The notes beneath the pieces were generated by a model. It saw nothing but the letters and a program-made list of their open reading frames with translations. It searched no databases and had not been told where the DNA came from. From Trypanosoma brucei (lineage: Eukaryota), in the NCBI GenBank assembly GCA_000002445.1, contig CP000071.1, forward strand, positions 2,208,001-2,272,000: a DNA stretch of 64,000 nucleotides, given 5' to 3'. Numbering within the stretch: the stretch's first letter is position 1; each line of letters begins with the position of its first letter. Positions 2,296-21,251 of the stretch are shown here, one piece after another. Made by a program: the position numbers and the translations under genes.

Positions 2296-2360
2296 AAGCC
2301 GTTTTGTTCCCCTTAACATTATTACTTTCCCCTTACCTCATATTTTCTATATCCATCAAG
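2296..2360 (+). promoter_or_regulatory. Polypyrimidine tract plus AG dinucleotide, candidate trans-splice acceptor for paralog A
   Basis: A CT-rich run (ttttgttccccttaacattattactttccccttacctcatattttctatatccatcaag) ends in AG about 38 nt upstream of the ATG at 2397. This is the typical kinetoplastid arrangement. Confidence 0.45.
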
Positions 2361-2396
2361 TGTATAACCACAAAGACACTTAACCACCAAAAGAAA

Positions 2397-3797: not shown

Positions 3798-4345
3798 TTG
3801 GTTTATGTGTAGCATATCGGAATGTATCGTTTTAACGGGTTTATCGAGGCATGAACAGTACTATAAGTGCTGTAAAATAATATTATCATCACTATTATAG
3901 CAATGACACTGAGCGTAAACGTTACTAATAACACGGAAGTGAATGACTAGGCGACTTCTCTTTCCGCTTCACTACTCAAAAATATAACAACACATATTTT
4001 GTTTTTCTGCTGTTTCTGACAGTATAGTCCCCAACCCCAACTGAATCGCTTCAACCCAGGTCGGTTGATGTTTTTTCCCTAGTTGGCAACGCGCTCCAAC
4101 ATATCTTCGTTTAGTCTATGCGTGGCATCTGTAGAGTGGGTGGCTGGGACAACGCCATCTGTCTCCAGTTCTCGCACACTGTTCTTCGACCGATATTTCA
4201 TTATCTATTTTTTTTCTTACTGTTTTTGTTATGTCAATTATTATTTTAGCGTGGGGTTAATCCTGTTGTATGATGTAAACTAGTTGTATTGTTGCAATTA
4301 TTTTTTTTTATTCCGAGAAAAGGTAAATTTGGGTTGTCTGATCAC
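3798..4345 (+). repeat. A-to-B intergenic spacer, copy 1 of a ~4042-bp tandem unit
   Basis: Nearly identical to 7838-8387. Confidence 0.8.
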
Positions 4346-5986
4346 ATGTTTAAACTTCTTCGTATCATCACTCCGTCCCTGGCTCTTTGGTTCTTAACAC
4401 CAGGACAGTCGACTTCGTTCACATTGCGTGGGCATCTCCCTCAGTCCCATTCGCTGTACCTTTTCTCCCCAATTTCTTCTAGACTTTCCAAAGGCACAAA
4501 AGCAGGACAGACAGCGCCTCTTATGCATCCTGACGGAACCACTGCGCCTGATTCCTGGAGGCTCACGAACCCACCAGACTCCGTTGAGGCGGGGGCCACT
4601 GAGGGTGCGGCAACAGGTTCCTCAATCCCACATGGATCACCGGAGGCAACAGGTGACAAGGTTGGTGAAAACAATGACAGAGACCAATTGACCGCTTCGG
4701 GGGGGGAACGTTCGCAGCCATTCATGGAGTGCGTCAAAAAAGTGATACCGCCGGGTGGTTTGGTCTCCACGGTGTTCAATCTCGCTGCCATGTGCATCGG
4801 TGCCGGCATCCTCGGTCTTCCCGCAGCAGCTAATAGCAGCGGTCTGGTGATGATGTTTGTGTATCCTACAGTTATTGTTTTTCTTTCCATATACTCGCTC
4901 TACTGCCTCGCCACGCAGATAGAAAGGCACGGTCTAAAGTCCTACGAAGGCATGTCGAGGGCGCTGCTGGGTCCATGGTCCGCTTACCTTACTGGCGTGC
5001 TGCGTGCGCTCAATACCTTTGGCGCCTGCGTGGCGTTTATCATTGCCGTGGGTGATATCCTGAGTGCCATTCTAAAGGGTACCAACGCTCCAGATTTCCT
5101 GAAGCAGAAGTCAGGCAACCGATTGCTAACGTCCATCATCTGGCTATGTTTCATGCTCCCACTTGTAATACCCCGCAGCGTAAACACACTCCGCTACATA
5201 TCAACCATAGGAATTACATCCATCTGCTACCTTGTTGTCGTTATCGTGGTGCATTCGTACATGAATGGATTACCCGACAACATCAAAAAAGTGCATTTGA
5301 CTGGTGCCCCAGGTGATGAAGGCATTCACCTCTTTGGCACAGGAAATAAAGCAGTGGAAGGTCCGGGCGTCTTCATGTTCGCTTTTCTCTGCCAAGCGAA
5401 TTCGTTCGAAGTATACTTGGGCATGCCGCAACCCAACGTGCACAGGTTTACAGCCTACACAGCCATCGCCATGGCCGTATGCTTCGTGCTGTGCATTTTC
5501 GCAGCCTTCTTTGGTTACCTGGATTTTGGTGGGGCTGTTACTGGATCTGTGCTTCTGATGTATGACCCAGTGAATGAACCTGCAATTATGGTCGGTTTCG
5601 TTGGTGTGCTCGTCAAGCTGTGTGCGTCATATGCATTGCTGGCAATGGCTTGTCGTAATGCACTGTATAGTTTTGTTGGGTGGGATGCCGACGAGGTCGC
5701 CTTCTGGAAGCATTGCGTTTTTGTGATCTCCCTCTCTGCGGTTATCTTATTGTGCGGTCTCTTCATCCCAACCATAAACACGGTGTTTGGCTTCGTTGGG
5801 GCTGTTTGTGGAGGCTTTCTTGCCTTCATCCTCCCTTCGCTATTCATCATGTATGGCGGGGGCTGGTCCCTGAAGACGGTTGGATGGTGCCACTACCTTG
5901 CGACATATGCAGTGCTGTTTGCAGGGGTGGCATTATGCGTATTTGGTACAGGCGCTACCGTGTACAGTGTCGCAGTGGAGTGGTAA
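4346..5986 (+). CDS. Amino acid transporter (AAAP/AAT family), paralog B copy 1 (~546 aa; start codon uncertain)
   Basis: ORF 4289-5986. The ATG at 4346 is the first one conserved in frame in both B copies; the upstream ATG at 4289 lies in a poly-T tract and is not conserved in copy 2. The core from about residue 140 aligns with paralog A. An alternative start at the in-frame Met of LMHPDG (~4526) cannot be excluded. Confidence 0.8.
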   Translation: MFKLLRIITPSLALWFLTPGQSTSFTLRGHLPQSHSLYLFSPISSRLSKGTKAGQTAPLMHPDGTTAPDSWRLTNPPDSVEAGATEGAATGSSIPHGSPEATGDKVGENNDRDQLTASGGERSQPFMECVKKVIPPGGLVSTVFNLAAMCIGAGILGLPAAANSSGLVMMFVYPTVIVFLSIYSLYCLATQIERHGLKSYEGMSRALLGPWSAYLTGVLRALNTFGACVAFIIAVGDILSAILKGTNAPDFLKQKSGNRLLTSIIWLCFMLPLVIPRSVNTLRYISTIGITSICYLVVVIVVHSYMNGLPDNIKKVHLTGAPGDEGIHLFGTGNKAVEGPGVFMFAFLCQANSFEVYLGMPQPNVHRFTAYTAIAMAVCFVLCIFAAFFGYLDFGGAVTGSVLLMYDPVNEPAIMVGFVGVLVKLCASYALLAMACRNALYSFVGWDADEVAFWKHCVFVISLSAVILLCGLFIPTINTVFGFVGAVCGGFLAFILPSLFIMYGGGWSLKTVGWCHYLATYAVLFAGVALCVFGTGATVYSVAVEW

Positions 5987-7304
5987 CGATAGAAGTGGGG
6001 CGTCACTCGTCCTTCTCCATACATGCCCCGTGTCGAGCAAATATCATTGGGCATATGCTCTCTAAAGCCCTATTGGGCTCGTGAGATGTTTTCCTCCCCT
6101 TTTATTATGTTTTAATGCGTACGTATTATCATTATTGGATTTACTCCTCTTCCGGTATGCTCACTCGAAAACGTGTACCTCCGGCCCAACCAGAGGGAGA
6201 TAGTGTAAGGACGCAGGGATACAGGCTGTGGTGCAATTATCCATTACTGTCTCATTTAATATTTTATTGATATAGCCAATCTTTTCAGCGGTAGCAGCCT
6301 TTTTGTGTGTGTTTTAACTCCTTTCGGAGCGACGTCAGTAATAAGGGAGAAAAGCGTCGATGTCTCTTGGTTACTCGTCTTTATTTTTTTTTTGGTGAGT
6401 CTCCAAGTAAGTCACTCTTCGAGTTGCACACCACTCGGGTGCATATGAATGGTGGCGCTTCTCGCTCCGTTAACTTCACTGTTTTTTGTTGTTGTAACTT
6501 AATCCCACTAACACAGCACCCGACTAGGGATGTTCCGGGAAGCTATAAAACGTGCGTGCATATTGTCAGAGAAGGATCATCTGAGCATGCTGATCGTTGT
6601 TCCCCTAGGATTCGTTCTTGATCTCCTTCTTTATCTACTCTCCCTTTGCTTTCCTTCCTCCTCATATTCTTTACGCTCTCTGTTGCAGCACAAATGTTAG
6701 CGATGGGTGACCCGGACATCCCTTAGTTCCTTCTTTTCAGCAGGTTACCTGTTGGCGTTTGATGATTGTACCAATATCGGAGCTACAAGCAAAGTTGGCA
6801 GTATGCATATATGTTACAAATCCATGTACCCGTTGAACACCACTGTGGTCTGTTTCCCATTGCGTCTCCAGGGCTGATATGTATGCATTGTGTTTACCCT
6901 GAATCATGAACGCGGCCGCGCAACTCCTGGAAAATGGTGTCTGGTACGTTCTTTGTTTTGTTCCTTGCCGCGGCTGCATGGCAGTAGACAGTTATTAGCT
7001 GGATGTACAAATACACAGAGCCTTCCTTCATAAGGTTGAAAACTAAGGATAGTCATGTGTTCTAACAAACAATCACAAGTGGATGTTTCTTCGGCACTTC
7101 ACGCCGAACCGAATGCATCTACTCTCGTCTCTTGTAATGTCTCTTGGACTCGGAAGATGGCACCCGTCAGCTCATGGGGTGTCGCGACAATGGGGAAGAG
7201 GAAGGGTTAACGCACGCACTACTGTTCGTGATGCACGAGAGCCAAATAATCTGCTGCTGACGAAGGGCGCATCGGTCTAATGGGTGTACCCCATTACCAT
7301 TACT
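5987..7304 (+). repeat. B-downstream spacer, copy 1 (1.3 kb, part of the tandem unit)
   Basis: About 99% identical to 10029-11346 apart from a small indel near 6370/10412. Confidence 0.8.
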
Positions 7305-7837
7305 GTTTAGCGCCGTCCTATGTGTTGGCTATCTGCTTCACATTGTACGTAATGACAGCCTTCTTTGGTTACATGGATTTTGGTGGGGCTGTTACTGGAT
7401 CTGTGCTTCTGATGTATGACCCAGTGAATGAACCTGCAATTATGGTCGGTTTCGTTGGTGTGCTCGTCAAGCTATGCGTATCATACGCTATTCTCGCTAT
7501 GGCTTGCCGCAATGCACTGTATGATGTCGTGGGATGGGATGCCGACAAGGTTGCCTTCTGGAAGCATTGCATTGCCGTTGTTACTCTCTCTGTCGTCATG
7601 TTGCTGTGTGGCTTATTCATCCCCAAAATCACAACTGTGCTGGGATTGGCTGGTTCCATCTCTGGTGGATCGCTGGGTTTCCTATTTCCCGCCTTATTGG
7701 TGATGTATTCCGGTGGCTTTACGTGGCAGAAGGTGGGTCCGTTTTATTATCTTACTACATACGCTGTATTACTTACAGGTGTTATTGCCATTGTATTTGG
7801 TACGGGAGCGACCATCTGGGGAACTGCGACTGGTTAA
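7305..7837 (+). pseudogene. 5'-truncated paralog A fragment (last ~177 codons), possibly expressible as chimeric ORF 7280-7837
   Basis: Matches 3265-3797 of paralog A nearly base-for-base. The upstream junction follows ...cctatgtgttggct, which in the downstream unit (11340) continues into unrelated sequence. An in-frame ATG at 7280 in spacer sequence creates a 185-aa ORF covering the last ~5 TM helices. The region around 7375-7395 carries B-like bases (FGGAVTG instead of FGRAVTG). Confidence 0.7.
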
Positions 7838-8387
7838 TTGGTTTATGTGTAGCATATCGGAATGTATCGTTTTAACGGGTTTATCGAGGCATGAACAGTA
7901 CTATAAGTGCTGTAAAATAATATTATCATCACTATTATAGCAATGACACTGAGCGTAAACGTTACTAATAACACGGAAGTGAATGACTAGGCGACTTCTC
8001 TTTCCGCTTCACTACTCAAAAATATAACAACACATATTTTGTTTTTCTGCTGTTTCTGACAGTATAGTCCCCAACCCCAACTGAATCGCTTCAACCCAGG
8101 TCGGTTGATGTTTTTTCCCTAGTTGGCAACGCGCTCCAACATATCTTCGTTTAGTCTATGCGTGGCATCTGTAGAGTGGGTGGCTGGGACAACGCCATCT
8201 GTCTCCAGTTCTCGCACGCTGTTCTTCGACCGATATTTCATTATCTATTTTTTTTCTTACTGTTTTTGTTATGTCGATTATTATTTTAGCGTGGGGTTAA
8301 TCCTGTTGTATGATGTAAACTAGTTGTATTGTTGCAATTGTTTATTTTTTTATTCCGAGAAAAGGTAAATTTGGGTTGTCTGATCAC
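7838..8387 (+). repeat. A-to-B intergenic spacer, copy 2
   Basis: Nearly identical to 3798-4345. Confidence 0.8.
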
Positions 8388-10028
8388 ATGTTTAAACTTC
8401 TTCGTATCATCACTCCGTCCCTGGCTCTTTGGTTCTTAACACCAGGACAGTCGACTTCGTTCACATTGCGTGGGCATCTCCCTCAGTCCCATTCGCTGTA
8501 CCTTTTCTCCCCAATTTCTTCTAGACTTTCCAAAGGCACAAAAGCAGGACAGACAGCGCCTCTTATGCATCCTGACGGAACCACTGCGCCTGATTCCTGG
8601 AGGCTCACGAACCCACCAGACTCCGTTGAGGCGGGGGCCACTGAGGGTGCGGCAACAGGTTCCTCAATCCCACATGGATCATCGGAGGCAACAGGTGACA
8701 AGGTTGGTGAAAACAATGACAGAGACCAATTGACCGCTTCGGGGGGGGAACGTTCGCAGCCATTCATGGAGTGCGTCAAAAAAGTGATACCGCCGGGTGG
8801 TTTGGTCTCCACGGTGTTCAATCTCGCTGCCATGTGCATCGGTGCCGGCATCCTCGGTCTTCCCGCAGCAGCTAATAGCAGCGGTCTGGTGATGATGTTT
8901 GTGTATCCTACAGTTATTGTTTTTCTTTCCATATACTCGCTCTACTGCCTCGCCACGCAGATAGAAAGGCACGGTCTAAAGTCCTACGAAGGCATGTCGA
9001 GGGCGCTGCTGGGTCCATGGTCCGCTTACCTTACTGGCGTGCTGCGTGCGCTCAATACCTTTGGCGCCTGCGTGGCGTTTATCATTTCTGTGGGTGATAT
9101 CCTGAGTGCCATTCTAAAGGGTACCAACGCTCCAGATTTCCTGAAGCAGAAGTCAGGCAACCGATTGCTAACGTCCATCATCTGGCTATGTTTCATGCTC
9201 CCACTTGTAATACCCCGCAGCGTAAACACACTCCGCTACATGTCAGCCATAGGAATTACATCCATCTGCTACCTTGTTGTCGTTATCGTGGTGCATTCGT
9301 ACATGAATGGATTACCCGACAACATCAAAAAAGTGCATTTGACTGGTGCCCCAGGTGATGAAGGCATTCACCTCTTTGGCACAGGAAATAAAGCAGTGGA
9401 AGGTCCGGGCGTCTTCATGTTCGCTTTTCTCTGCCAAGCGAATTCGTTCGAAGTATACTTGGGCATGCCGAAACCCAACGTGCACAGGTTTACAGCCTAC
9501 ACAGCCATCGCCATGGCCGTATGCTTCGTGCTGTGCATTTTCGCAGCCTTCTTTGGTTACCTGGATTTTGGTGGAGCTGTTACTGGATCTGTGCTTCTGA
9601 TGTATGACCCAGTGAATGAACCTGCAATTATGGTCGGTTTCGTTGGTGTGCTCGTCAAGCTATGCGTATCATATGCATTGGTGGCAATGGCTTGTCGTAA
9701 TGCACTGTATAGTTTTGTTGGGTGGGATGCCGACGATGTCGCCTTCTGGAAGCATTGCGTTTTTGTGATCTCCCTCTCTGCGGTTATCTTATTGTGCGGT
9801 CTCTTCATCCCAACCATAAACACGGTGTTTGGCTTCGTTGGGGCTGTTTGTGGAGGCTTTCTTGCCTTCATTCTCCCTTCGCTATTCATCATGTATGGCG
9901 GGGGCTGGTCCCTGAAGGCGGTTGGATGGTGCCACTACCTTGCGACATATGCAGTGCTGTTTGCAGGGGTGGCATTATGCGTATTTGGTACAGGCGCTAC
10001 CGTGTACAGTGTCGCAGTGGAGTGGTAA
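8388..10028 (+). CDS. Amino acid transporter (AAAP/AAT family), paralog B copy 2 (~546 aa)
   Basis: ORF 8376-10028. About 98-99% identical to B copy 1, with a few substitutions: IIAVGD to IISVGD, YISTIG to YMSAIG, QPNVH to KPNVH, CASYALLAM to CVSYALVAM, ADEVAF to ADDVAF, KTVGW to KAVGW. Confidence 0.85.
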   Translation: MFKLLRIITPSLALWFLTPGQSTSFTLRGHLPQSHSLYLFSPISSRLSKGTKAGQTAPLMHPDGTTAPDSWRLTNPPDSVEAGATEGAATGSSIPHGSSEATGDKVGENNDRDQLTASGGERSQPFMECVKKVIPPGGLVSTVFNLAAMCIGAGILGLPAAANSSGLVMMFVYPTVIVFLSIYSLYCLATQIERHGLKSYEGMSRALLGPWSAYLTGVLRALNTFGACVAFIISVGDILSAILKGTNAPDFLKQKSGNRLLTSIIWLCFMLPLVIPRSVNTLRYMSAIGITSICYLVVVIVVHSYMNGLPDNIKKVHLTGAPGDEGIHLFGTGNKAVEGPGVFMFAFLCQANSFEVYLGMPKPNVHRFTAYTAIAMAVCFVLCIFAAFFGYLDFGGAVTGSVLLMYDPVNEPAIMVGFVGVLVKLCVSYALVAMACRNALYSFVGWDADDVAFWKHCVFVISLSAVILLCGLFIPTINTVFGFVGAVCGGFLAFILPSLFIMYGGGWSLKAVGWCHYLATYAVLFAGVALCVFGTGATVYSVAVEW

Positions 10029-11975: not shown

Positions 11976-12341
11976 ATGGGAGGAGTGAAGTTCGCCGTGC
12001 TGGCACTGCTTGTATTTGCCTTGCTGTATGTCGTCACGCGCGTTTTGTTGACACGTCACCGATCAAATCCGCGAAACGACGGACGCCAACAGCACACGGA
12101 GCCTAGTTGGGACATCACCAACGGAGCCAATATTCCTGTGGTTCAGCCAATGGAAAGCACACCACCACTGTCAGAACCAGGCGTGTTGCTGGCTATTCCT
12201 TTAGCATGGCACCGGGAGATCCCTCTGTCATCGAGACCAAGTAGAAGTGACACGGGAAATAGGCCAGTAAATCCCTTAGAACGCGCACCGGACGGACCGG
12301 AGGTCGTCTACTCTCATGCAAAGTACATCCCCCGAGCCTGA
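11976..12341 (+). CDS. Hypothetical small protein with an N-terminal hydrophobic segment (121 aa)
   Basis: A same-strand ORF preceded by a CT-rich tract (tctttgttttcctttctttttctttcc). The N-terminus (FAVLALLVFALLYVVTRVLL) looks like a signal anchor. No family recognised. Confidence 0.3.
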   Translation: MGGVKFAVLALLVFALLYVVTRVLLTRHRSNPRNDGRQQHTEPSWDITNGANIPVVQPMESTPPLSEPGVLLAIPLAWHREIPLSSRPSRSDTGNRPVNPLERAPDGPEVVYSHAKYIPRA

Positions 12342-13052
12342 AGTGCGTCTTGACAGGAGCTAAAGATAGATTCGGATGAAGGGTGCAAAAAAAAAAAACG
12401 GCGACAGCTGCAGGAGGCGTGCGGAACGCATTTAGTTGCATAAGTCAGTGTGGAGTGGGAAGTGCGGGTGAATAGGTCGTAGCAACTTGTTGCCGTATGG
12501 AACACATCGTGCTGTCCTTTTGAGGGAGACTGCGTATGCAATAAACTTTGCCCACCCTAAGCTTTGGGCCGATCTCACATTGTTGCACGGCGTGTTTCCG
12601 CTTCCTTTTAGCACAGGTATGTTATATGTGTATCCTAAAGGTGTAGGATATGTATATTTTAATAGTATCTTTGTTGCAGTTGAATGTTTATTTGTGACAT
12701 TATTATTTTGTATTATTATCATACACTTTGTCTGCGCAAATCCGCTACAGATGAAGGACTTTTTAGAGGTTGGAGAGGAAAAATAATAGTAACGATGACA
12801 ATAATGACATTCAATGGGGGGGTGGTCCACGTCACTGGGTGGGTTGACTGCCACTGCTGATGACCTTCATGATACAATACTCTTAATGCTGGTGTGTCGG
12901 TGGTCGTTGGCCGCATAGGCTTTTGCAGCACTGGCTCTGTCACTGCTAACATGGTTTCCCTCTTCTTCCTCGAACACGTATGCTCGCTGCCGCGGACTAC
13001 TCGTACATCCACATGCGTCTCTTACCTTCATATCTTTCAGTTGATAAGTACG

Positions 13053-13089
<37 letters not shown>
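13053..13089 (+). repeat. Composite microsatellite (CA)n(TA)n
   Basis: cacacacacacacacacacacatatatatatatata, read directly. Confidence 0.95.
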
Positions 13090-13273
13090 TTTTAACGCAT
13101 ATCCCTGAGGTGTGTCGTTCGCGCCCGCATTGCGCAAGCCGTGTGTCCGCTCACAAAGGCATCATACTCGTTGCTCAGCGTGACGACAATTCCCTTCGCT
13201 GGCCATCAAGCAGAGGAACTTGTGGGAGTTGTAAAACAAAGGTCAAAAAGAAAGGAGGTGGGGCCAAGGGGAC

Positions 13274-13933
13274 ATGGAAACCACGCACATAATCAACGTG
13301 GTTTCTTTTAGTGTTCTATTCTTTTGCCTACTTACGATAACAATTGAGTACGTAGTTTCGAGTAGGCGGCAGCGCCGCCTTGCGAATGCGAGGTCACGGG
13401 AAAGAGAGCATTTGGAAGTCACCAGACGTAACACCACGGACCATATGCGCAGAAAACTGACGCGACAGGCCATCGAGCTCCTTCTCGCCAACGGCTACGT
13501 GACTGAAGGAATCGCCTTAGCTTCCATGGTGGGGACTACGGAGGTGCCTGTGGATAGGGAGTTACGTCCCAATAGGCCTCGACGGAGGCCAAATTTAGTC
13601 ACCGTGGCGGACGGTAGTCGCATGAGCATAAGTCGTGTAGTGCAGCGGGCGCGAGCAAATGGCCAAGCACCCGATGCTCCACCTGGTCCTGTGCTCATGG
13701 AGCTCCTTGAGAAGCTACAGCAGCAGATGCAGCGTGAAAATGAATCACAGCCCTTCAGTGGGCCGGTACACACACCAGTGGAAGAGCTGGTGGTGCGGTT
13801 AGTGAAGTTGGAGGGGGACGCGAAGGGTCTTGAAAAGCCCTCAGCTGCAGATGAGACATATGGGAAGCCAGTTGAGTACACCATAAATCCGGCCAACAGT
13901 TCTATTTGGTACGTTGGGAACAACTGTTGGTGA
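13274..13933 (+). CDS. Hypothetical single-pass membrane protein, tandem paralog 1 (219 aa)
   Basis: An N-terminal hydrophobic segment (VVSFSVLFFCLLTITIEYVV) is followed by a basic stretch RRQRRLANARSRE. It shares blocks with the ORF at 14999 (ELLLANGYVTEGIALASMVGTTEV, SGQAPDAPPGPVLMELLEKLQ, TYGKPVEYTINPAN). Confidence 0.6.
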   Translation: METTHIINVVSFSVLFFCLLTITIEYVVSSRRQRRLANARSREREHLEVTRRNTTDHMRRKLTRQAIELLLANGYVTEGIALASMVGTTEVPVDRELRPNRPRRRPNLVTVADGSRMSISRVVQRARANGQAPDAPPGPVLMELLEKLQQQMQRENESQPFSGPVHTPVEELVVRLVKLEGDAKGLEKPSAADETYGKPVEYTINPANSSIWYVGNNCW

Positions 13934-14749
13934 AGCGGTGGCAGTGTTTATATGAAAAAAGTAGAAAGTGGGGGAGCGACGGCGCGCCTCTAATCATTTC
14001 GAGTGTATGTGTTCCGGCACAATTCAAGGGAATGTGTAAAAGGGACATGTGACTTTAATCCTCCGTTAGGAAAAAAAAAGTTGAGGAGCAAGGAAATAGG
14101 CTTCGGGTGCCGTATTTCAATTGGTTATCTCCTTAGTTGTTGTCACACATTATTTTTTGGAGCTTTCTCTGGAGGTGACTACTTCGTTGTTGTTTTACTG
14201 AAACTTCTACCCATCTTTTTTTTGTCTCCATTGATTTACCCTCACATGTCTTTGTTCCCCGTAGCGATAGTTGCTCCTTGTTATTTATTTTACTGTTTCT
14301 ACCGCCCGGTTTTGCTCAAATTTGTCATGTGATTATTGTGCAATCGTGTCATTAATAACGTCATTCTCAGCTTCTTTTCGCCTTTTAAAGTAGAAGGAGT
14401 GCAGTGCTTCGGGGGCTATAAATTGGGCTATGAATATTTCCTTATTTGTTTGATTGTTACCACCACTTTTTTATTTTATTTTACTTTCTCCTCTCTGCGT
14501 TCATATTTTTGTGTTTTTTAGACGTTATTGTCTTTTCTTTTTTCTCCTTTAATTATACACGAAAAGTGTGAAGAACCCTCTCTTTTTTTATTGTGTCAGT
14601 CACCTCCTTTCTTTCACTTTTTTCCCTTACTCCACACAATTACCCATTTCGATGCACAACCATGTATAAATTTCTTTTTTCATTGTTTGCCGTTGATCTC
14701 CCACGTGCTTATACGTGCTTATCGCCCTCATACCTTTCAGTTGATAGGT

Positions 14750-14785
14750 ACACACACACATATATATATATATATAATATATATA
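14750..14785 (+). repeat. Composite microsatellite (CA)n(TA)n
   Basis: Same flanking context (cctttcagttgata[ag]gta ... ccctgaggtgtgtcgttcgcgccc[ag]cattgcgcaa) as the copy at 13053, so part of a duplicated upstream module. Confidence 0.95.
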
Positions 14786-14998
14786 CGCATACCCCTGAGG
14801 TGTGTCGTTCGCGCCCACATTGCGCAATCCGTGTGTCAATCTGTAATTTCCCCATCGGCATAAGCGGTGGCTGGTCGGCACACCGTTGCACACACGTCAG
14901 GAAAAAATTATACATTTCAGCTCGGGATCGCCCCAGTGAACAGAAGGACGAACATTCCCTTCACAGGCCACTAGTCGAGAAATTCTTGGGCGACAGCA

Positions 14999-15676
14999 AT
15001 GGCGACAAATAAGGGAATAACGTTTCAAGTCATAGTGGGCATCGCCGCACTGCTTTCGGCGTTCATAATAATTATGATATGCATTATAGTCATCGAGAGG
15101 AGGCGTCTTCGGAATGCGAGGGCACGGCAGAACGTGCAGCTCGACCCAGCGGCACTTAATCTCACTGGTGAGCAGTTGCGCCACCGTTTGATACGCCACG
15201 CCGTTGACCTCCTTTTAGCTGATAACTATGTATGTGAGGGGATTACCTTAACTTCCACAGTGGGTGTGACGGAAGTTCTCGCGGACAGGGAATTACGCTC
15301 CACCCGCGGTAGGCCGTATTTCATTACGACGGCAAATGGTCGGCGTGCCACCATTTCACAAGTAGTGCAGCAGACGCGCGCAAGTGGTCAAGCACCCGAT
15401 TCCCCGCCAGGTCCTGCGTTGATGGAACTCCTCGAGAAATTGCAGCACGCCCGAAGGGCGGAGCCGGTACCCAATGAAGCGCTTTGCAAACAAGTGGAGG
15501 AACTGATGGAGCGTCTCATAAAACTCGAGGAGGCTAATCAAAGGAAAGATATGAAAACTGATGCAGATGAAGTGTATGGGAAAGCAGCACAGTATGCAAC
15601 GAACCCAGCTAATAAATGCGTTCGCCACGTCATGAACGCTGTTGGGGTAGGAAGAAGTCTGGTCGCTTCCCGATAA
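14999..15676 (+). CDS. Hypothetical single-pass membrane protein, tandem paralog 2 (225 aa)
   Basis: N-terminal TM segment (VIVGIAALLSAFIIIMICIIVI) then RRRLRNARARQ. Paralogous to 13274-13933 across its length. Confidence 0.65.
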   Translation: MATNKGITFQVIVGIAALLSAFIIIMICIIVIERRRLRNARARQNVQLDPAALNLTGEQLRHRLIRHAVDLLLADNYVCEGITLTSTVGVTEVLADRELRSTRGRPYFITTANGRRATISQVVQQTRASGQAPDSPPGPALMELLEKLQHARRAEPVPNEALCKQVEELMERLIKLEEANQRKDMKTDADEVYGKAAQYATNPANKCVRHVMNAVGVGRSLVASR

Positions 15677-16377
15677 AATGAGACATTTAGACAAAACAGG
15701 GAAAAAAGCGTAACCTTCCGCTTCTCTTCCATCCTATGCACACACACTACGTGCGGGCGCGCTTCCCTGTAGTCGCTCGTTTGGAGCACCGTCTAGCTTG
15801 TATTCCTTTGAAATATATGGAAAGAAAAGGAGAAAGTGGGAGGAAAGGAAAATGATTCTAATATTTTTAAAGAATTAAGAGAGGGAGTGACTAAGCAATG
15901 TGTGCGCCACAAAACCAAGGAAAAGAAGAAAGGGGGAAATCAGTAACAAAAATGCAAACGTGCGTCCGGCCACCTGTTGGGACCCAAAGTGGATGAAAAA
16001 TTGCGGTATATTTTAACTGCTTGATATGGTGAGGTGGAAACAATGGAAGGAGGAATAAAGGTGAGGAAGTTTCATATTCCTCTCTTTATTTGTTGATCTC
16101 CCAACACACACACACATATACACTTCCTCCTCATTACCATCCCCACTCATCATTCTTCTGTCGAGTACTTCCTTTCGTTTTGTTTTGTTTTCTCCCTTTC
16201 CTTCTCTTCCTGTAGTGTTCGTTTGTGTTTTTTTTTTTTAGATTGTGGACTGTTATTATTAATATTAATATTACAGAGAAAGGCGTAATGGGTAATTACC
16301 CAATATCTAGGACTACGGTATTGCTATACGTCGACGACTTGATTTATTTGTCGCCCTGTAATTGAATGGAGGGACGG

Positions 16378-16419
<42 letters not shown>
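16378..16419 (+). repeat. Composite microsatellite (CA)n(AT)n
   Basis: Read directly. Confidence 0.95.
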
Positions 16420-17335
16420 ATGAAGAAAAAAGAAATGAAAGAACCAAGTATAAAGAAATAGCACGGGGAGGAAAAGTGAAAAAGAAAGAAAAATTCGACA
16501 TTTTCTTCCACTTTGCTTAAATGTCATATTTTCGGCGTATTTCACTTTCTCCCACCTTTTTTTAAAGTGTTTTCCTTGTATGGAAAATGTACCTGGGAAG
16601 AAATCTTATTTTGGTGTGCCCATGCGTATCAGTCGTATACCTAACCATCAAAATCGGCACCACATACCTCATGTACTCATTTACTTTTATATTTCCTCAT
16701 CTTCCTTGTTACTCCTTCTTCTCTTTTTTTCTTTCCTTTCTTATGATCTGGTTTTTCTCACCCTTCATTCTTCCCTTATTGTTACCACCATGATTATGAT
16801 CATCACTACCATTATTATTCGTGTTGCTAATGGCGTTGTGTTGAGGCATTAGTTTTGTCTCCCCGTTGTTATTGGCGTTTTTTTTTTGTTTCCTCCGTGG
16901 TGTGTGTATGTTGTTTGGTTGTTGTTTCTTTTTTCTTTGTTCGGGTGTGTAGTTGCAATATTATTTCAGCTAACTTTTCATGCGGTTTTCGTACTGCTTT
17001 CATACAACTCACACAACTTTTCGTGTGTGTCTGTGTGTGTGTTCTTCTTTGCTTTCAAGTAACGATTTGATTATGAATTAACGTGTGTAAATGTACATAT
17101 ATACATATATATATATATGTTTATATATTCACGTGAAAGGTGAATTTGAAAGAAAAGTAGAGAAATATGGCAGGTGTTTTCTCGTTTCTCCCTTTTCTTT
17201 CTTTTTTTTTTTCACTTTGCTGCTTCCATGTATCCACTCTTGATTTAGTGCTACCTCATCGGTAGAGGCGTTGATGTGAGTCGAAGTAAGCAGATAGAAG
17301 TGATTGATAATATTCCCCTCATGCTTTTTCGTGTT

Positions 17336-17369
<34 letters not shown>

Positions 17370-17370
17370 G
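17336..17370 (+). repeat. Composite microsatellite (TA)n(TG)n
   Basis: Read directly. This is the reverse orientation of the (CA)n(TA)n type. Confidence 0.95.
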
Positions 17371-20057
17371 TGATAAAGAGGACGTTGTTGTTATTGCGTT
17401 TTGGAAAAGGGGGGAAAAGGAAAATAAGGGAGGGAAAAGGCAACAAAGTCTTCTCCCTCTAACTACTTCTCTGCGTTTGAAACTTTTAATTTATCCTGAA
17501 GGTTTCGAGTTACAGGGTGCTAGCGGTATTTCGTTGTTGTTGCTAAAAGTCATGCGTGTTGCTTCTTCCTGGTTGATACATCTCACGCAGTGTCCCGTCG
17601 TTTGTTTTATTGTTCAGGAACAGGCTCAACAAAAAGAAGAAAGGAGAATTTTTTAAAAAAAGTGTTTGAGGAAAGTCGCTGCCGAGACTTCTTGCACGCA
17701 CACGAGCTGTGGGTTTTGTCGATAACTGGGTTCATGTTGTGCTGATAATTTATATTCATTCCAACACGCGTTCCCACCTCTCCCTACCATCATTACCATC
17801 ATTATAAAAGAAAAGGGCGTGAGACAGTAAAAGTGTTTAAGGTAAAGAACTGCCTGGAAAAGAGGGGGGAAGAAGAGGATCAACACCGGTGACTTTTTGA
17901 GGGGAGGAGGAGGAGGAGGAACTTCATACGTGCGGTGCTCAGACCACGATTATTCAGTAAGCGAAGCAGGAGTGGGAGCCACAACATCAATCTTCTTTTA
18001 CACCAACCCTAACACAATAACTACGTTTACGCACATACATGTTCATGTTGAAGTGAACTAAGACGGCGCCGAAAGGGAACAATACACATATATGTATACA
18101 TACATATATAAGCCTAGTGCTGAGTGGTTTAAGCACGAGCCAGTATATTGGGTTTTACACCAAACCTATCGGTCGTTGCTAGTCGCCGTAACATTTTTTT
18201 GCAGTAATGAATGCAGACCTTGCAGATCTTCACTTTCAAGGTGATTCGGGATGGGTGATGTTAGCAGTCTCCTCCGCTGAAACCAGAGAGTCCATGCAAG
18301 TGGTGCTTCCTCAAAGCGCCAGATTCAAAGGGGGAAAAATGTTGGAAACGCGAAGTCGCCCTGTCAGACTTGCCGTGATGGTTTTTGTGTGTTGTACAGA
18401 AGCCGAGTGTTTTTCTTCCTTTCACTAGAGCCTGGATCAGGACCTTGGGAAAAGGCGCATTATGGGGTAAATTGGATTGTTTCATCATAAATCAGAATAT
18501 CCCACCTACTGCCCAATACGCCTTCCTTCCATTTTGGAGGGTCTTTACATTTCGACGTGCTCAACTACCGTAGGGGAACAACAGCTGCAATTAGTTCCGC
18601 GGAAACACATATAGGATAAATCAAAATATTTTCATCATCCTGGTGAGAAGAGGAATACCGCCGATGTGTGGAGTGGTGGTTGGGATAAATTCTTCAGTAT
18701 TAGCATTTGCTCACTTGGCATGGAGGCTGTAAGCCCCCATAGCAATGGTGTGTATCCTACTTGATGTTGGGTTTGCGCAGCCAGTGAAGTCGCTCTCTAT
18801 GTTGGGCATCTCGGAAGTTTGTAATGCTTCCCCGGGTGTTGCTTTTGCCCTCAAACGCTTGAATAGTTTCGGCAACGAACAAAATAAAAAAAAGACTTCC
18901 CTCTCTATAAAAGTATTCAGACGTGCATCGGTGGGGTAGGCCACCTTACTGGCGCTGTGGTTGCCGGATCCTGTTGCACGTCGGCCAAAAAAAGTTCGGG
19001 CGGGGTATCCCAAAGAAATATATATATGCACTTAAAAGGATACCGTGTGAGCCTGAACGAAAGCGATCGTGCGAGCAGATACAAGAAAATCAGGGTGAAA
19101 GTGCCGCCCACGTTCTTTTGCTGTTGTTGTTATTGTTGCTGACACAATGGGTCTCTTATGCATGTTAATGCAAAGGAGTGGTGAATCAAACGGCTGCAGA
19201 AAAGAAAGTGGGTATTTGGGATATGGCATGCAAGGCACTGTTGGGATGTGATTCGAGTTGCCTTCCCCCTTCTTAAATGCTGGAGAGTGGGTGCTCACGC
19301 GCCAATCTTGCATTAAAAGGGTACGCGTGAAAATGACAACAGAGGCGAGACATGCTGTGGCAGTGCAATGCTGCTGAAGAAAAAAGTGGAGGTGTTGGAA
19401 AACGATGATAATTTAAACCGGTACGGTGAGTTCGTTTACGCAACCCAGATGCCCGGGCATCGCGCGGCATTCGGGAACTGGGGGAGAGGGAAGTGGAACT
19501 TGAGCGGGCGACAACTATTTTAAGCCCTCTTTATGTACATTATCGCTTTTGTGCATGTAGTTATAATTGTACTCCCTTTGGATTGTTTACAGGGGATATT
19601 TTCTCCAAAGCACGAAGAGACAGCAGCGAAACCTTCAAGACGATTAAGGGAGCGGATGCTCATGTAAACGTATCAATCGGCAGGGAAAGTAACGTGAGAA
19701 GCGCACAGGCCAAAACGGCAGGCAGTACTGGAAGGTGCTCCTCCCACTAGGGGTGAAAAGAGCATCGCCGCAAGCGCACCGCTGTTTCGGGGCAGACAAA
19801 CAGGCAGCAGTTTGGGGGCGACCGAGAATTGATGGTATCTGTTAATTGCTTCCGCTCGGACCGGATTCATTTGCTGCACGAGAAGTAAAGCCTCTTTTGT
19901 CCACATGTTTGCCCATCGGGTCCTCTTAGTTATTGCAATCTCTCTTGCCATCTCACTTTTTAAAACAATTATCCGCTAGTACCCCAAGAGGAGAGATCTG
20001 CATAAGGCGGCCGAGCTGAGCAACTGGTACCCCAAAAAAAAAAAAAACAGCAATCAC

Positions 20058-21251
20058 ATGGCACGGCACCCTTTAGGGAATATGTACGCAATGACGGCAG
20101 AAAGGGCACGGGAGTACGGTTTTGTGTCCCACTACAATCACACAGGGAGTGAGGCGTCAGACAAACTAGCCAACAACATCACCCTGACAAGCGAAGAATG
20201 GGTACAGTTGTTGACCGGTCCCGTGCAATTTATAACGCAGAGTGGCGGCTGGGGTGGTGCGGGTTTTGACGCAACAGTGCTCCCTCAACTTCTTTTATGT
20301 TTTCCCTGGGTTATTGCTTTCCTGATGTTTCGGGTCTTCACCCAAAGGCAGCTCATACGTGTCGGTCTTTGGTTGCAAGTTGTTGTCCCTAAAGGTGGCA
20401 CTGCGGCGACATTAAGCAATTCACAGCGGCGGAAACTCAAGAAGTTCCAGAACCAGGTGTGGTTGGCAACGTATTACATTGTCTCTACCATCTTTGGGTA
20501 CGCCGTGCAGATTGGAAAGCCGTGGTTTGGCCTTCCCGTGAGCAAAGCAAATCGTGTTGCATTGCTTACCCCGCACCCTTACAAACCGGGCAACGGTTTA
20601 CTATGTTATTATCAGTACGGACTCGGATTTTATATCGCAGAAATGTTAGCGCTTCTTACAGAATATGACATCAAGCGATCGGATTTTGTCGAATACTTTA
20701 TTCACCACATCGTAACGGTCGCACTTATCGTTGTATCGCACTGCAGCTACGAGCACCGCTTCGGAGTGTATGTATTGTTAATTCATGACGCCAGTGACAT
20801 TATGCTGGCTTTAAGCAAGATCCTGAACTATGTTTTAGGCGCACAAGCAAAGAGGACGCGGCAGCGCAAAGCTGGTAAGAAGGTAGACGTGGTGGAGGCA
20901 AAATCCTCATTTCTTTACAGAATGATATTTTGTGAAACTACAATGAACATAGTTTTTGTCGCATTTACGGCAGTTTTCGTTTTCTTTCGATTGGTTTGTC
21001 TTCCGTACCTCGCCCTATCAAACATTGTTTATGGTGTGAAGATACGAATGTTCACCTGGAGTTACTGTTTGTTAATTTTTCTGCTGCAGGTAGCGCTTCA
21101 GGGGTTACACATTTACTGGTTCACAATCATCGTGAAAGTTTTGATCAATACAGCTCTGGGAAGTCGTGTAGATGACATTCGCTCTGAAGACGACGAAGAC
21201 GATGGTAACGTCAGGGAGAGAGCCTCGTTCAAGCACTCCAAGACGTCGTAG
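20058..21251 (+). CDS. Ceramide synthase (sphingoid base N-acyltransferase), LAG1/TLC-domain family (397 aa)
   Basis: Multi-pass membrane protein carrying the Lag1p motif with the invariant His pair and Asp residues (RSDFVEYFIHHIVTVALIVVSHCSYEHRFGVYVLLIHDASDIMLALSKI). It has an acidic C-terminal tail (SEDDEDDG). The start could instead be the internal Met of MYAMTAER. Confidence 0.8.
   Translation: MARHPLGNMYAMTAERAREYGFVSHYNHTGSEASDKLANNITLTSEEWVQLLTGPVQFITQSGGWGGAGFDATVLPQLLLCFPWVIAFLMFRVFTQRQLIRVGLWLQVVVPKGGTAATLSNSQRRKLKKFQNQVWLATYYIVSTIFGYAVQIGKPWFGLPVSKANRVALLTPHPYKPGNGLLCYYQYGLGFYIAEMLALLTEYDIKRSDFVEYFIHHIVTVALIVVSHCSYEHRFGVYVLLIHDASDIMLALSKILNYVLGAQAKRTRQRKAGKKVDVVEAKSSFLYRMIFCETTMNIVFVAFTAVFVFFRLVCLPYLALSNIVYGVKIRMFTWSYCLLIFLLQVALQGLHIYWFTIIVKVLINTALGSRVDDIRSEDDEDDGNVRERASFKHSKTS

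What the first reader, a model, noticed from the sequence alone, without database searches (positions are those of the whole stretch)
13020..15676. Tandemly duplicated pair of unknown signal-anchor proteins, including their upstream microsatellite module
The ORFs at 13274 and 14999 are paralogs of about 50% identity. Both have an N-terminal TM helix followed by RRxRLxNARxR, and both share the blocks ELLLANGYV[TC]EGI[AT]L, SGQAPD[AS]PPGP[VA]LMELLEKLQ and [TV]YGK...NPAN. I do not recognise the family. Each has the same ~120-bp upstream module (cctttcagttgata[ag]gta-(CA)n(TA)n-...ccctgaggtgtgtcgttcgcgccc[ag]cattgcgcaa[gt]ccgtgtgtc) at 13030-13150 and 14735-14830. So a ~1.7-kb unit that includes its own processing signals was duplicated. 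The conserved central motif and the charged juxtamembrane stretch suggest a type II membrane protein with a conserved lumenal or extracellular domain.
Basis: seen in the sequence. Interest (0 to 1): 0.5.

Follow-up and report, generated by a model that had tools for sequence, protein, structure and literature searches.

The report
Known trypanosome membrane-anchor gene pair
Two neighbouring Trypanosoma brucei genes (Tb927.8.7710 and Tb927.8.7720) encode related small membrane-anchored proteins of a catalogued family with no known function, and the near-identical DNA in front of each gene was copied between the neighbours long after the original duplication.

Summary
ORF A (13274-13933, 219 aa) and ORF B (14999-15676, 225 aa) are paralogs: 50% identity over 166 aa, E 2e-49. 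Both carry a ~110-120 nt upstream module found only twice in the window.

The window is T. brucei chromosome 8. The ORFs are Tb927.8.7710 and Tb927.8.7720, both annotated as conserved hypothetical proteins. They are already listed as chr4/chr8 duplicon loci 38 and 39 (Jackson 2007) and as Fam70 of the cell-surface phylome (Jackson 2013).

The family has no Pfam, PDB or fold match. It occurs across Trypanosoma and Leishmaniinae.

- **Topology.** Charge distribution, the lack of conserved Cys or sequons, and published phosphosites on the chr4 paralogs point to N-out/C-cytosolic (type III), not type II with a lumenal domain. TrypTag places Tb927.8.7710 in the endocytic system.
- **Upstream module.** Synonymous sites between A and B are saturated (dS about 1.9), yet the module core is 94-96% identical. 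The core is absent upstream of the chr4 and T. congolense copies, and those pairs have their own, differently placed identity patches. This fits later local gene conversion covering the predicted splice acceptor and 5'UTR start.

Biochemical function is unknown. Interest is low to moderate.

The parts
13274..13933 (+). ORF A = Tb927.8.7710, 219 aa, 24.8 kDa; A-type member of Fam70
   Evidence: ORF. The sequence is identical to XP_847598.1 / Q57V90. The published TrypTag tagging primers match 13851-13930 and 13934-14013 exactly.
14999..15676 (+). ORF B = Tb927.8.7720, 225 aa, 24.9 kDa; B-type member of Fam70
   Evidence: ORF. It is 100% identical to P0001 / XP_847599.1. The mass of 24.9 kDa matches the value given for Tb927.8.7720 in PMC3976917.
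13289..13357 (+). N-terminal membrane anchor of A (about aa 6-28, IINVVSFSVLFFCLLTITIEYVV), with the A-type [ED]Y signature at its end
   Evidence: Hydropathy and charge analysis. The [ED]Y signature is shared with Tb4A, TcoA and T. vivax.
13364..13399 (+). Basic juxtamembrane cluster of A (RRQRRLANARSR, aa 31-42)
15029..15094 (+). N-terminal membrane anchor of B (aa 11-32, VIVGIAALLSAFIIIMICIIVI)
   Evidence: The AlphaFold2 model has a helix over residues 4-47 with pLDDT 84-98 in the first 40 residues.
15098..15127 (+). Basic juxtamembrane cluster of B (RRRLRNARAR, aa 34-43)
13661..13720 (+). Conserved block GQAPDAPPGPVLMELLEKLQ of A (aa 130-149); the family motif is PDAxPGPxxLxxL
   Evidence: Alignments. 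P133 is invariant; P137, G138, P139 and L145 are nearly invariant.
15386..15445 (+). Conserved block GQAPDSPPGPALMELLEKLQ of B (aa 130-149)
   Evidence: This is the best-conserved coding stretch between A and B, with 70-78% nucleotide identity.
13859..13897 (+). C-terminal motif YGKPVEYTINPAN of A (aa 196-208); family signature (E)VYGxGxxYxxNPxN
   Evidence: Y196, G197 and Y202 are invariant in the A2 alignment of 11 sequences from Trypanosoma species plus two unplaced relatives. The corresponding Y, G and Y of B stay invariant, with both N of NPxN, when Leishmaniinae are added.
15575..15613 (+). C-terminal motif YGKAAQYATNPAN of B (aa 193-205)
13027..13147 (+). Upstream module, copy 1: head TTCATATCTTTCAGTTGATAAGT, then (CA)n(TA)n, then a 52-nt unique core
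14727..14837 (+). Upstream module, copy 2
   Evidence: The core is 49/52 identical to copy 1 in the window, and 50/52 in T. b. gambiense and T. b. equiperdum.
13039..13040 (+). Predicted trans-splice acceptor AG of gene A (inferred, not shown)
   Evidence: It is the first AG downstream of the only polypyrimidine tract of 10 nt or more in the intergenic region (12955-12971). The rule used comes from general knowledge of trypanosome trans-splicing.
14739..14740 (+). Predicted trans-splice acceptor AG of gene B (inferred, not shown), at the position homologous to 13039-13040
   Evidence: It is the first AG after the last three polypyrimidine tracts (14603-14681).
13182..13207 (+). Second, weaker conserved 5'UTR patch (GACGACAATTCCCTTCGCTGGCCATC), matched at 14947-14972
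   Evidence: About 72% identity in a 40-column window. A gapless match has 6 mismatches in 26 nt.

Best explanation
The region holds two expressed protein-coding genes of Trypanosoma brucei chromosome 8, Tb927.8.7710 (A) and Tb927.8.7720 (B).

**Origin.** They descend from an old tandem duplication that predates the T. brucei / T. congolense split. The T. brucei-specific chr4/chr8 segmental duplication then copied the pair again, giving Tb927.4.4810 and Tb927.4.4790.

**Family.** They belong to a trypanosomatid-restricted family, Fam70 of the cell-surface phylome. It has no detectable relationship to any characterised domain.

**Protein (partly inferred).**
- Each protein is a single-pass membrane protein held by an uncleaved N-terminal anchor.
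- The most likely orientation is a very short N-terminus facing the lumen or outside, with the whole ~190-residue C-terminal part in the cytosol (type III, N-exo/C-cyt).
- The C-terminal part is predicted to be helical and partly disordered rather than globular.
- It carries short conserved motifs (EGIPLA, DRxLR, PDAxPGPxxLxxL, VYGxGxxYxxNPxN) and, in the paralogs, phosphosites.
- Protein A sits on endocytic and reticulate (ER-like) membranes.
- Inferred mechanism: a membrane-tethered, phospho-regulated cytosolic docking or adaptor tail in the endocytic system. The biochemical activity is unknown.

**Upstream module.** It is not a relic of the duplication. It is a ~110-120 nt patch spanning the predicted trans-splice acceptor and the first ~100 nt of the 5'UTR. 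It was homogenised between the two neighbours by local gene conversion, after the chr4/chr8 duplication and before the T. brucei subspecies diverged. One likely effect, which may or may not be selected, is that both mRNAs share the same 5' processing site and 5'UTR start.
For: **Identity**
- The ORFs are exact matches to XP_847598.1 and XP_847599.1.
- TrypTag primers for Tb927.8.7710 match 13851-14013.
- ORF B has a mass of 24.9 kDa, as reported for Tb927.8.7720.

**Catalogued**
- Jackson 2007 lists loci 38 and 39, labelled 'TMH', with CDS identity of 0.40 and 0.39 to Tb927.4.4810 and Tb927.4.4790.
- Jackson 2013 Table S1 lists Fam70, exemplar Tb927.8.7720, with 4 / 2 / 2 copies in T. brucei, T. 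congolense and T. vivax, Ks 2.22 and Ka 0.57.

**Functional genes**
- dN/dS between A and B is 0.26.
- A tagged cell line for Tb927.8.7710 gave the annotation 'endocytic, cytoplasm[reticulated]'.
- Tb927.4.4810 is annotated 'cytoplasm (points, weak), endocytic'.

**Ancient duplication**
- pS is 0.69 and dS about 1.9 between A and B.
- Gene order is AAT, small TM gene, A, B on chr4, and AAT, A, B in T. congolense.
- In the N-terminal region Tb8A groups with TcoA at 94% bootstrap.

**Family breadth**
- Members were found in T. cruzi, T. melophagium, T. grayi and T. vivax.
- Members were also found in Leishmania, Leptomonas and Novymonas.

**Topology**
- Flanking charges and the absence of conserved Cys or sequons are shown.
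- Phospho-S48 of Tb927.4.4790 lies in RLRLGS (PMC6907760 supplement).
- Phospho-S192/S193 of Tb927.4.4810 lie in EESSVEEVYG (PMC11408851 supplement).

**No globular fold**
- The AlphaFold2 model has pLDDT 70 and pTM 0.29. It shows long helices, with residues 81-102 below pLDDT 50.

**Module homogenised later**
- The core is 49/52 identical, against 56% nucleotide identity in the CDS.
- It is absent from the chr4, T. congolense and T. vivax loci even at up to 5 mismatches in 23 nt.
- The chr4 pair shares a different 282-bp upstream patch at 96.5%, plus a coding patch with 14/18 identical codons.
- The T. congolense pair shares a coding core at 98-100% nucleotide identity, with 135/143 identical codons, and no shared upstream sequence.
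- Paralog-specific differences in the module are the same in T. b. gambiense and T. b. equiperdum.
- The first AG after the polypyrimidine tracts falls inside the module in both genes.
Against: **Topology**
- It rests on rules and on phosphosites in the chr4 paralogs, not on A or B themselves.
- The S48 site is not conserved in B.
- Jackson 2013 scored the family as having a signal peptide. C-terminal tagging cannot tell the two orientations apart.

**Localisation and expression**
- Localisation data come from procyclic forms with a bulky tag.
- I retrieved no protein-level data for Tb927.8.7720, because the supplement file was cut when stored.

**Gene conversion**
- It normally needs flanking homology, and the flanks here are now unalignable. 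The mechanism that produced such a short patch is therefore not shown.
- Selection for a shared regulatory element may contribute.

**Other gaps**
- The splice acceptor is predicted, not mapped.
- The tree does not recover Tb8A with Tb4A, and Tb8B groups with Tb4B at only 69% bootstrap.
Confidence: 0.65

Rival explanations
1. One reading: these are type II (N-cytosolic / C-lumenal or extracellular) membrane proteins, and the conserved C-terminal domain acts in the lumen or on the cell surface.
For: - The N-terminal hydrophobic segment was scored as a signal peptide, and the family was placed in the cell-surface phylome.
- An endocytic or ER-like localisation fits a lumenal protein equally well.
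- A and B each contain one or more N-x-S/T sequons.
Against: - The positive-inside rule and charge difference point the other way in 13 of the 14 members examined.
- No sequon or cysteine position is conserved.
- About 25% of residues in the domain are charged, and the domain is predicted to be non-globular.
- The phosphosites are in basophilic (RLRLGS) and acidic (EESSVEE) contexts, typical of cytosolic kinases.
Confidence: 0.15
2. The N-terminal segment is a cleaved signal peptide, and the mature proteins are soluble secretory or lysosomal cargo.
For: - Jackson 2013 marks the family as 'SP y'.
- The endocytic signal of the C-terminally tagged protein would suit endocytic or lysosomal cargo.
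Against: - The hydrophobic stretch is 19-30 residues long, well beyond the usual signal-peptide h-region.
- It runs straight into an Arg cluster, with no consistent small-residue cleavage motif.
- AlphaFold2 models one continuous helix over residues 4-47.
- The phosphosites argue for cytosolic exposure.
Confidence: 0.05
3. The upstream module is an old cis-regulatory element (splice signal or 5'UTR control element), kept nearly identical by purifying selection since the tandem duplication.
For: - The module is far more conserved than synonymous sites.
- It overlaps the predicted splice acceptor in both genes.
- Its paralog-specific differences are stable across T. brucei subspecies.
Against: - An element constrained since before the brucei/congolense split should also be present upstream of the chr4 copies and the T. 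congolense orthologs. It is not.
- The chr4 pair shares a different module.
- RNA folding is unremarkable, with z-scores of -0.1 to -1.3, and there is no Rfam match.
- A milder version remains possible: conversion created the module and selection for co-regulation then retained it.
Confidence: 0.12
4. The module similarity is simply left over from a recent duplication of a 1.7-kb unit.
For: The two copies are in the same order and orientation relative to their ORFs, with a spacing of 1,690-1,725 bp.
Against: - The coding sequences are saturated at synonymous sites.
- The 3' regions are unalignable.
- A-type and B-type genes are separately recognisable in T. congolense and on chr4.
Confidence: 0.03

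Closest known systems
Fam70 of the African-trypanosome cell-surface phylome (exemplar Tb927.8.7720; Jackson et al. 2013, PMC3605285)
   Same: ORF B is the family exemplar. ORF A and the two chr4 genes make up the four T. brucei members. The copy numbers, single TM segment and high Ka agree with what I measured.
   Different: - The phylome treats the family as putative surface or secreted (SP yes). My evidence favours a cytosolic C-terminal domain on endocytic or ER membranes.
- I also find members outside African trypanosomes, in T. cruzi, T. melophagium, T. grayi and Leishmaniinae.
Chr4/chr8 duplicon paralog pairs 38 and 39 (Tb927.4.4810 / Tb927.8.7710 and Tb927.4.4790 / Tb927.8.7720; Jackson 2007, PMC2212663)
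   Same: These are the same genes. They are classed as 'divergent CDS / divergent non-coding sequence' between the two chromosomes. I reproduce that result: 40-45% aa identity and no upstream similarity between chr4 and chr8.
   Different: In the parts of that paper I read, the comparison was between chromosomes. I did not see the within-locus pattern there, namely that each tandem pair shares its own private upstream patch.
Type III (reverse signal-anchor, N-exo/C-cyt) membrane proteins, such as the N-terminal anchors of microsomal cytochrome P450s (from general knowledge)
   Same: Both have a very short uncharged N-terminus, a long hydrophobic anchor and a basic cluster immediately after it, with the bulk of the protein in the cytosol.
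   Different: There is no sequence or fold relationship. The resemblance concerns topology only, and topology was not tested experimentally here.
Concerted evolution by gene conversion in tandem trypanosome gene arrays (general phenomenon, from general knowledge)
   Same: There are patches of near-identity, including at synonymous sites, between neighbours that are otherwise old and diverged. The patches lie in different places at different loci.
   Different: In the window the patch is very short (~110-120 nt), excludes the coding sequence, and lies exactly on the predicted splice acceptor and 5'UTR start.

Membership tests
Fam70 / Tb927.8.7710-7720 orthogroup | Sequence identity or significant homology to the exemplar Tb927.8.7720 | tested here: met
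   ORF B is 100% identical to XP_847599.1. ORF A matches B at E 2e-49.
Fam70 / Tb927.8.7710-7720 orthogroup | A single N-terminal hydrophobic segment and no GPI signal | tested here: met
   There is one segment only. The next-best 19-mer hydropathy is 1.5 or lower. The C-termini are hydrophilic.
Fam70 / Tb927.8.7710-7720 orthogroup | Four T. brucei copies, arranged as two tandem pairs on the chr4 and chr8 duplicons | tested here: met
   Two copies lie in the window and two in L001. Pairings follow Jackson 2007.
Type II signal-anchor protein (N-cyt / C-exo) | Net positive charge on the N-terminal side of the anchor relative to the C-terminal side | tested here: not met
   The N flank carries 0 to +2 and the C flank +1 to +6. 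The C flank is the more positive in 13 of the 14 members.
Type II signal-anchor protein (N-cyt / C-exo) | Lumenal hallmarks in the C-terminal domain (conserved cysteines or N-glycosylation sites) | tested here: not met
   No Cys or sequon column is conserved.
Type III signal-anchor protein (N-exo / C-cyt) | A short N-terminus, a long anchor and a basic cluster after the anchor | tested here: met
   helix over residues 4-47 in the model.
Type III signal-anchor protein (N-exo / C-cyt) | Cytosolic exposure of the C-terminal domain | tested here: inconclusive
   Published phosphosites exist on the chr4 paralogs (S48; S192/S193). None was retrieved for A or B, and there is no direct topology assay.
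Cleaved-signal-peptide secretory protein | A short h-region (about 7-15 aa) followed by a small-residue cleavage motif | tested here: not met
   The hydrophobic run is 19-30 aa and ends in an Arg cluster. No signal-peptide predictor was available.
Any Pfam or PDB-characterised domain | A significant profile or fold match | tested here: not met
   Best Pfam hit E 0.13. Best PDB profile hit E 0.27. Best Foldseek PDB hit E 2.7. All database homologs have Pfam '-'.
Structured RNA or snoRNA in the upstream module | An Rfam match, or a fold more stable than shuffled sequence | tested here: not met
   The only Rfam hits are microsatellite-driven miRNA noise far below gathering scores. Fold z-scores are -0.1 to -1.3.
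Dispersed repeat or mobile element (for the module) | Extra copies away from the two genes | tested here: inconclusive
   No further copy was found in the 64-kb window or in the chr4, T. congolense and T. vivax loci. No whole T. brucei genome could be searched with these tools.

The most novel reading that the evidence does not exclude
Fam70 proteins could be a trypanosomatid-specific class of endosomal type III membrane adaptors whose dosage controls drug or cargo handling.

The chr4 paralog Tb927.4.4810 was the most enriched ORF (597-fold) among melarsoprol survivors in a gain-of-function screen.

The private, repeatedly homogenised splice-site and 5'UTR patches of each tandem pair could be a selected way to keep the A and B partners co-expressed, for example as a heteromeric pair.
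Probability: 0.1. Interest if true: 0.55.

Novelty: already known. Interest (0 to 1): 0.22.

Why it matters
For genome annotation this is routine. Both genes are annotated, and the pair and its family have appeared in two comparative papers.

What this analysis adds is modest but usable:
- **Orientation.** The family is probably misfiled as 'surface or secreted'. The evidence favours a cytosolic tail on endocytic membranes, which changes how it should be studied: look for binding partners and phosphoregulation, not antigenicity.
- **Distribution.** The family is pan-trypanosomatid, not restricted to African trypanosomes.
- **Local gene conversion.** The locus is a clean small example of patchy conversion between old tandem paralogs. 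In T. brucei the patch falls on the mRNA 5' processing region.
- **Drug link.** The unvalidated screen hit for Tb927.4.4810 is the only lead towards a phenotype.

Tried and rejected
**Searches for a known protein family (all negative)**
- Pfam scan of both ORFs: nothing above threshold.
- Profile search of the PDB: nothing.

**Ideas about the upstream module (all rejected)**
- snoRNA or other structured RNA. The CTGA and TGATA strings briefly suggested C/D boxes. Rfam returned only microsatellite noise and folding is no better than shuffles.
- Coding sequence or uORF. The long ORFs through the module (12894-13292 and 14593-15012) merely translate the shared DNA. They cross the length-variable microsatellite and the two copies differ by a 10-nt indel.
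- Dispersed repeat. No other copy was found in the sequence available. The genome-wide test was not possible.
- Ancestral conserved element. It is absent from the chr4, T. congolense and T. vivax loci.

**Other checks**
- I looked for a third family copy or a pseudogene in the window and found none.
- I looked for a remnant of the chr4 'X' gene downstream of B and found none.
- The Logan contigs starting at 14798 were checked for spliced-leader sequence or poly(A). They have neither and simply break at microsatellites.
- One phosphoproteomics paper (PMC3646404) is not held in the library. PMC13524880 and PMC10209625 have no supplements held as text.
- From memory I compared the motifs with known short linear motifs: clathrin box, acidic dileucine, YxxPhi, NPxY, NPF and P[ST]AP. 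None fits across the family. DxxxLL occurs only in the Leishmaniinae-type sequences I checked by eye.


Full report
**1.

The window has two same-strand ORFs, 13274-13933 (219 aa) and 14999-15676 (225 aa).
- BLASTP gives 50% identity over 166 residues, E 2e-49. A full-length codon alignment gives 44% amino-acid and 56% nucleotide identity.
- Each protein starts with a few polar residues, then a 19-23-residue hydrophobic stretch, then an arginine cluster: RRQRRLANARSR in A and RRRLRNARAR in B.
- The upstream module is real. It spans 13027-13147 and 14727-14837. It has a 23-nt head (20/23 identical), a (CA)n(TA)n microsatellite and a 52-nt unique core (49/52 identical). Probes for the core hit exactly twice in 64 kb, with none expected by chance.

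Two qualifications apply.
- Only about 0.95 kb of each ~1.7-kb period is alignable. The 3' halves share nothing.
- The compound microsatellite is a common intergenic feature of this window, so only the unique flanks define the module.

**2. Where the window comes from and what the genes are**

- Both ORFs are identical to T. brucei TREU927 and T. equiperdum proteins XP_847598.1 / Q57V90 and XP_847599.1 / Q57V91.
- The published TrypTag primers for Tb927.8.7710 match 13851-13930 and 13934-14013 exactly, so ORF A is Tb927.8.7710.
- ORF B is the next gene. Its mass of 24.9 kDa equals the value reported for Tb927.8.7720.
- The neighbours fit this part of chromosome 8: an amino-acid-transporter array upstream, and a TLC-domain gene plus another transporter downstream.

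**3. The genes are already catalogued**

- Jackson 2007 lists Tb927.4.4810 / Tb927.8.7710 and Tb927.4.4790 / Tb927.8.7720 as retained paralog pairs 38 and 39 of the T. brucei-specific chr4/chr8 duplication. They are labelled only as 'TMH' proteins.
- Jackson 2013 lists the family as Fam70 of the cell-surface phylome, with Tb927.8.7720 as exemplar. It records 4, 2 and 2 copies in T. brucei, T. congolense and T. vivax, Ks 2.22 and Ka 0.57.
- I fetched the chr4 locus (L001). It has the same arrangement: transporters, a small TM gene, an A-type gene (231 aa) and a B-type gene (228 aa).
- The T. congolense locus (L002) has transporter, A-type, B-type, another TM gene and cullin.
- The T. vivax locus (L003) has A-type copies interleaved with transporters.

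**4. The family**

- There is no Pfam domain, no PDB relative by profile, and no precomputed Pfam domain on any database homolog.
- An exhaustive phmmer search found 12 proteins at E up to 0.001: the query itself, 10 apparent relatives and one unrelated 1,625-aa repeat protein at E 7e-4. Of the eight non-brucei relatives seen, six are named as Trypanosoma proteins (T. congolense, T. vivax, T. cruzi, T. melophagium, T. grayi) and two come from unnamed Logan assemblies.
- A profile search added 380-400-aa proteins from Leishmania mexicana, Leptomonas and Novymonas. The family is therefore trypanosomatid-wide.
- In the Trypanosoma-centred alignment, six positions are invariant. With the Leishmaniinae added, 16 are invariant, including the Y, G and Y of the VYG motif and both N of NPxN. 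The conserved features are:
  - the N-terminal anchor;
  - a basic juxtamembrane stretch;
  - E-G-[IV]-P-L-A;
  - DRxLR;
  - PDAxPGPxxLxxL;
  - an acidic helix;
  - (E)VYGxGxxYxxNPxN.
- AlphaFold2 on ORF B with a 20-sequence alignment gave pLDDT 70 and pTM 0.29. The model has a confident long N-terminal helix (residues 4-47), several further helices and a disordered stretch at 81-102. It has no compact fold. Foldseek against the PDB found nothing.

**5. Orientation in the membrane**

The evidence points the other way.
- Across 14 members the N-terminal flank is 0-10 residues with net charge 0 to +2. The 15 residues after the anchor carry +1 to +6, more positive than the N flank in 13 of the 14. 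By the positive-inside rule (general knowledge) this predicts N-out / C-in.
- No cysteine or sequon is conserved. About a quarter of the residues in the C-terminal part are charged.
- Published phosphoproteomes report phospho-S48 of Tb927.4.4790, which maps to RLRLGS just after the anchor.
- They also report phospho-S192/S193 of Tb927.4.4810, which map to EESSVEEVYG, directly before the invariant VYG motif.
- Phosphorylation in these contexts is what cytosolic kinases produce. This is an inference, and it comes from the paralogs, not from A or B.
- TrypTag annotates C-terminally tagged Tb927.8.7710 as 'endocytic, cytoplasm[reticulated]' and Tb927.4.4810 as 'cytoplasm (points, weak), endocytic'.

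My best reading is a type III membrane protein on endocytic and ER-like membranes, with a flexible, motif-bearing, phosphorylated cytosolic tail. That suggests a docking or adaptor role, but the biochemical function is not known. The only phenotypic lead is that Tb927.4.4810 was the most enriched ORF (597-fold) among melarsoprol survivors in an overexpression library. I found no sign that it was individually validated.

**6. History of the duplication**

- Synonymous sites between A and B are saturated (pS 0.69, dS about 1.9), with dN 0.49 and dN/dS 0.26. Both genes are therefore old and under purifying selection.
- The A-type N-terminus carries a conserved acidic residue plus Tyr at the end of the anchor. 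It is shared by Tb8A, Tb4A, TcoA and T. vivax. B-type N-termini are shared by Tb8B, Tb4B and TcoB.
- In an NJ tree of the N-terminal part, Tb8A groups with TcoA at 94% bootstrap.
- Together with the conserved A-then-B order, this places the tandem duplication before the brucei/congolense split, and so before the chr4/chr8 duplication.
- Resolution elsewhere in the tree is poor.

**7. What the upstream module is**

If the module were a relic of that ancient duplication, it would be as scrambled as the synonymous sites. Instead its unique core is 94% identical in the window and 96% identical in T. b. gambiense and T. b. equiperdum.

If it were an ancient element preserved by selection, it should also sit upstream of the chr4 copies and the T. 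congolense orthologs. It does not, even allowing 5 mismatches in 23 nt.

Each tandem pair instead has its own private patch of near-identity:
- **Chr4 pair:** a different 282-bp upstream sequence at 96.5%, plus a short coding patch with 88% nucleotide identity and 14/18 identical codons.
- **T. congolense pair:** a coding core at 98-100% nucleotide identity, with 135 of 143 same-amino-acid codons identical, and no shared upstream sequence.

This mosaic is the signature of local gene conversion between neighbours, occurring independently at each locus.

In the window the converted patch begins about 13 nt before the first AG that follows the polypyrimidine tract or tracts of each gene (13039-13040 and 14739-14740). 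It therefore most likely covers the trans-splice acceptor and the first ~100 nt of the 5'UTR. This is a prediction from the usual rule, not mapped.

The few paralog-specific differences are identical in three T. brucei lineages. Microsatellite length varies among them, and one A/G difference (14817) is private to the window's lineage. The event therefore predates subspecies divergence.

Whether selection for co-regulation helps retain the patch cannot be decided here. The module shows no unusual RNA structure and no Rfam match.

**8. Verdict**

- The proposed orientation is probably the wrong way round.
- The proposed origin of the upstream module is wrong.
- The genes and family are already in the literature as uncharacterised entries, so novelty is low.
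- The corrections to topology, taxonomic range and module history, and the melarsoprol lead for the family, are the useful outcomes.

Noticed in passing
window 11976-12341 (+): A 121-aa ORF just upstream of gene A has the same architecture: an N-terminal anchor, a basic stretch and a Pro-rich tail. It has a chr4 homolog (L001 6565-7029, 154 aa, E 2e-19) and is a called gene in T. b. gambiense (L004 494-871). Its tail ends in VVY[SG]HxxYIPR, and it has an [AG]IP[LI]A motif in the same order as the Fam70 EGIPLA and VYGxGxxY motifs. hhalign gives only 42% probability, so it may be an older, shortened tandem relative, but this is not shown.
   Followed up: partly
L001 7603-7875 vs 9443-9722, and P0012: The chr4 pair shares its own 282-bp upstream module (96.5%), rich in (TTA)n, a C-run and (CA)n. 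The original 364-aa TREU927 model of Tb927.4.4810 (P0012) reads through this module (YYYYYY...HTHTHT), which looks like an annotation artefact. Phosphosite numbering (S192/S193) fits the 231-aa form. If the ORFeome clone used in the melarsoprol screen carried the long form, the screen result may not reflect the native protein.
   Followed up: partly
L002 4093-4650 vs 6872-7447 (T. congolense): The A-type and B-type genes of T. congolense have nearly identical coding cores (135/143 identical codons), but different N-terminal anchors, different C-termini and different upstream regions. This is a clear recent gene-conversion tract.
   Followed up: yes
L003 7422-7691 (T. vivax): A truncated 89-aa Fam70 5' fragment sits between two amino-acid-transporter genes, upstream of the full-length 237-aa copy. 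The family fragment appears to have been carried along with duplication of the transporter array.
   Followed up: no
window 2304-10028 and 22503-23906: There is an array of amino-acid-transporter genes (PF01490). It includes a 185-aa ORF (7280-7837) that matches only the C-terminal half of the domain and is probably a truncated copy. A TLC-domain (ceramide-synthase-like) gene lies at 20058-21251.
   Followed up: no
window 15677-20057: There is no ORF of 150 aa or more for about 4.4 kb downstream of gene B. On chr4 and in T. congolense a further N-terminally anchored gene (327 and 232 aa) follows B. tblastn finds no remnant of it in the window, so it seems to have been lost from chr8.
   Followed up: partly
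window 14817: The window's B-copy module has A where T. b. gambiense, T. b. equiperdum and three Logan-assembled isolates have G, the same base as the A copy. It is a lineage-private SNP. Microsatellite lengths in both modules also differ between lineages.
   Followed up: yes
window 16377-16420, 17083-17136, 17336-17373: Further (CA)n(TA)n compound microsatellites of the same type as in the module lie in nearby intergenic DNA. They also produce the only (spurious) Rfam miRNA hits.
   Followed up: yes
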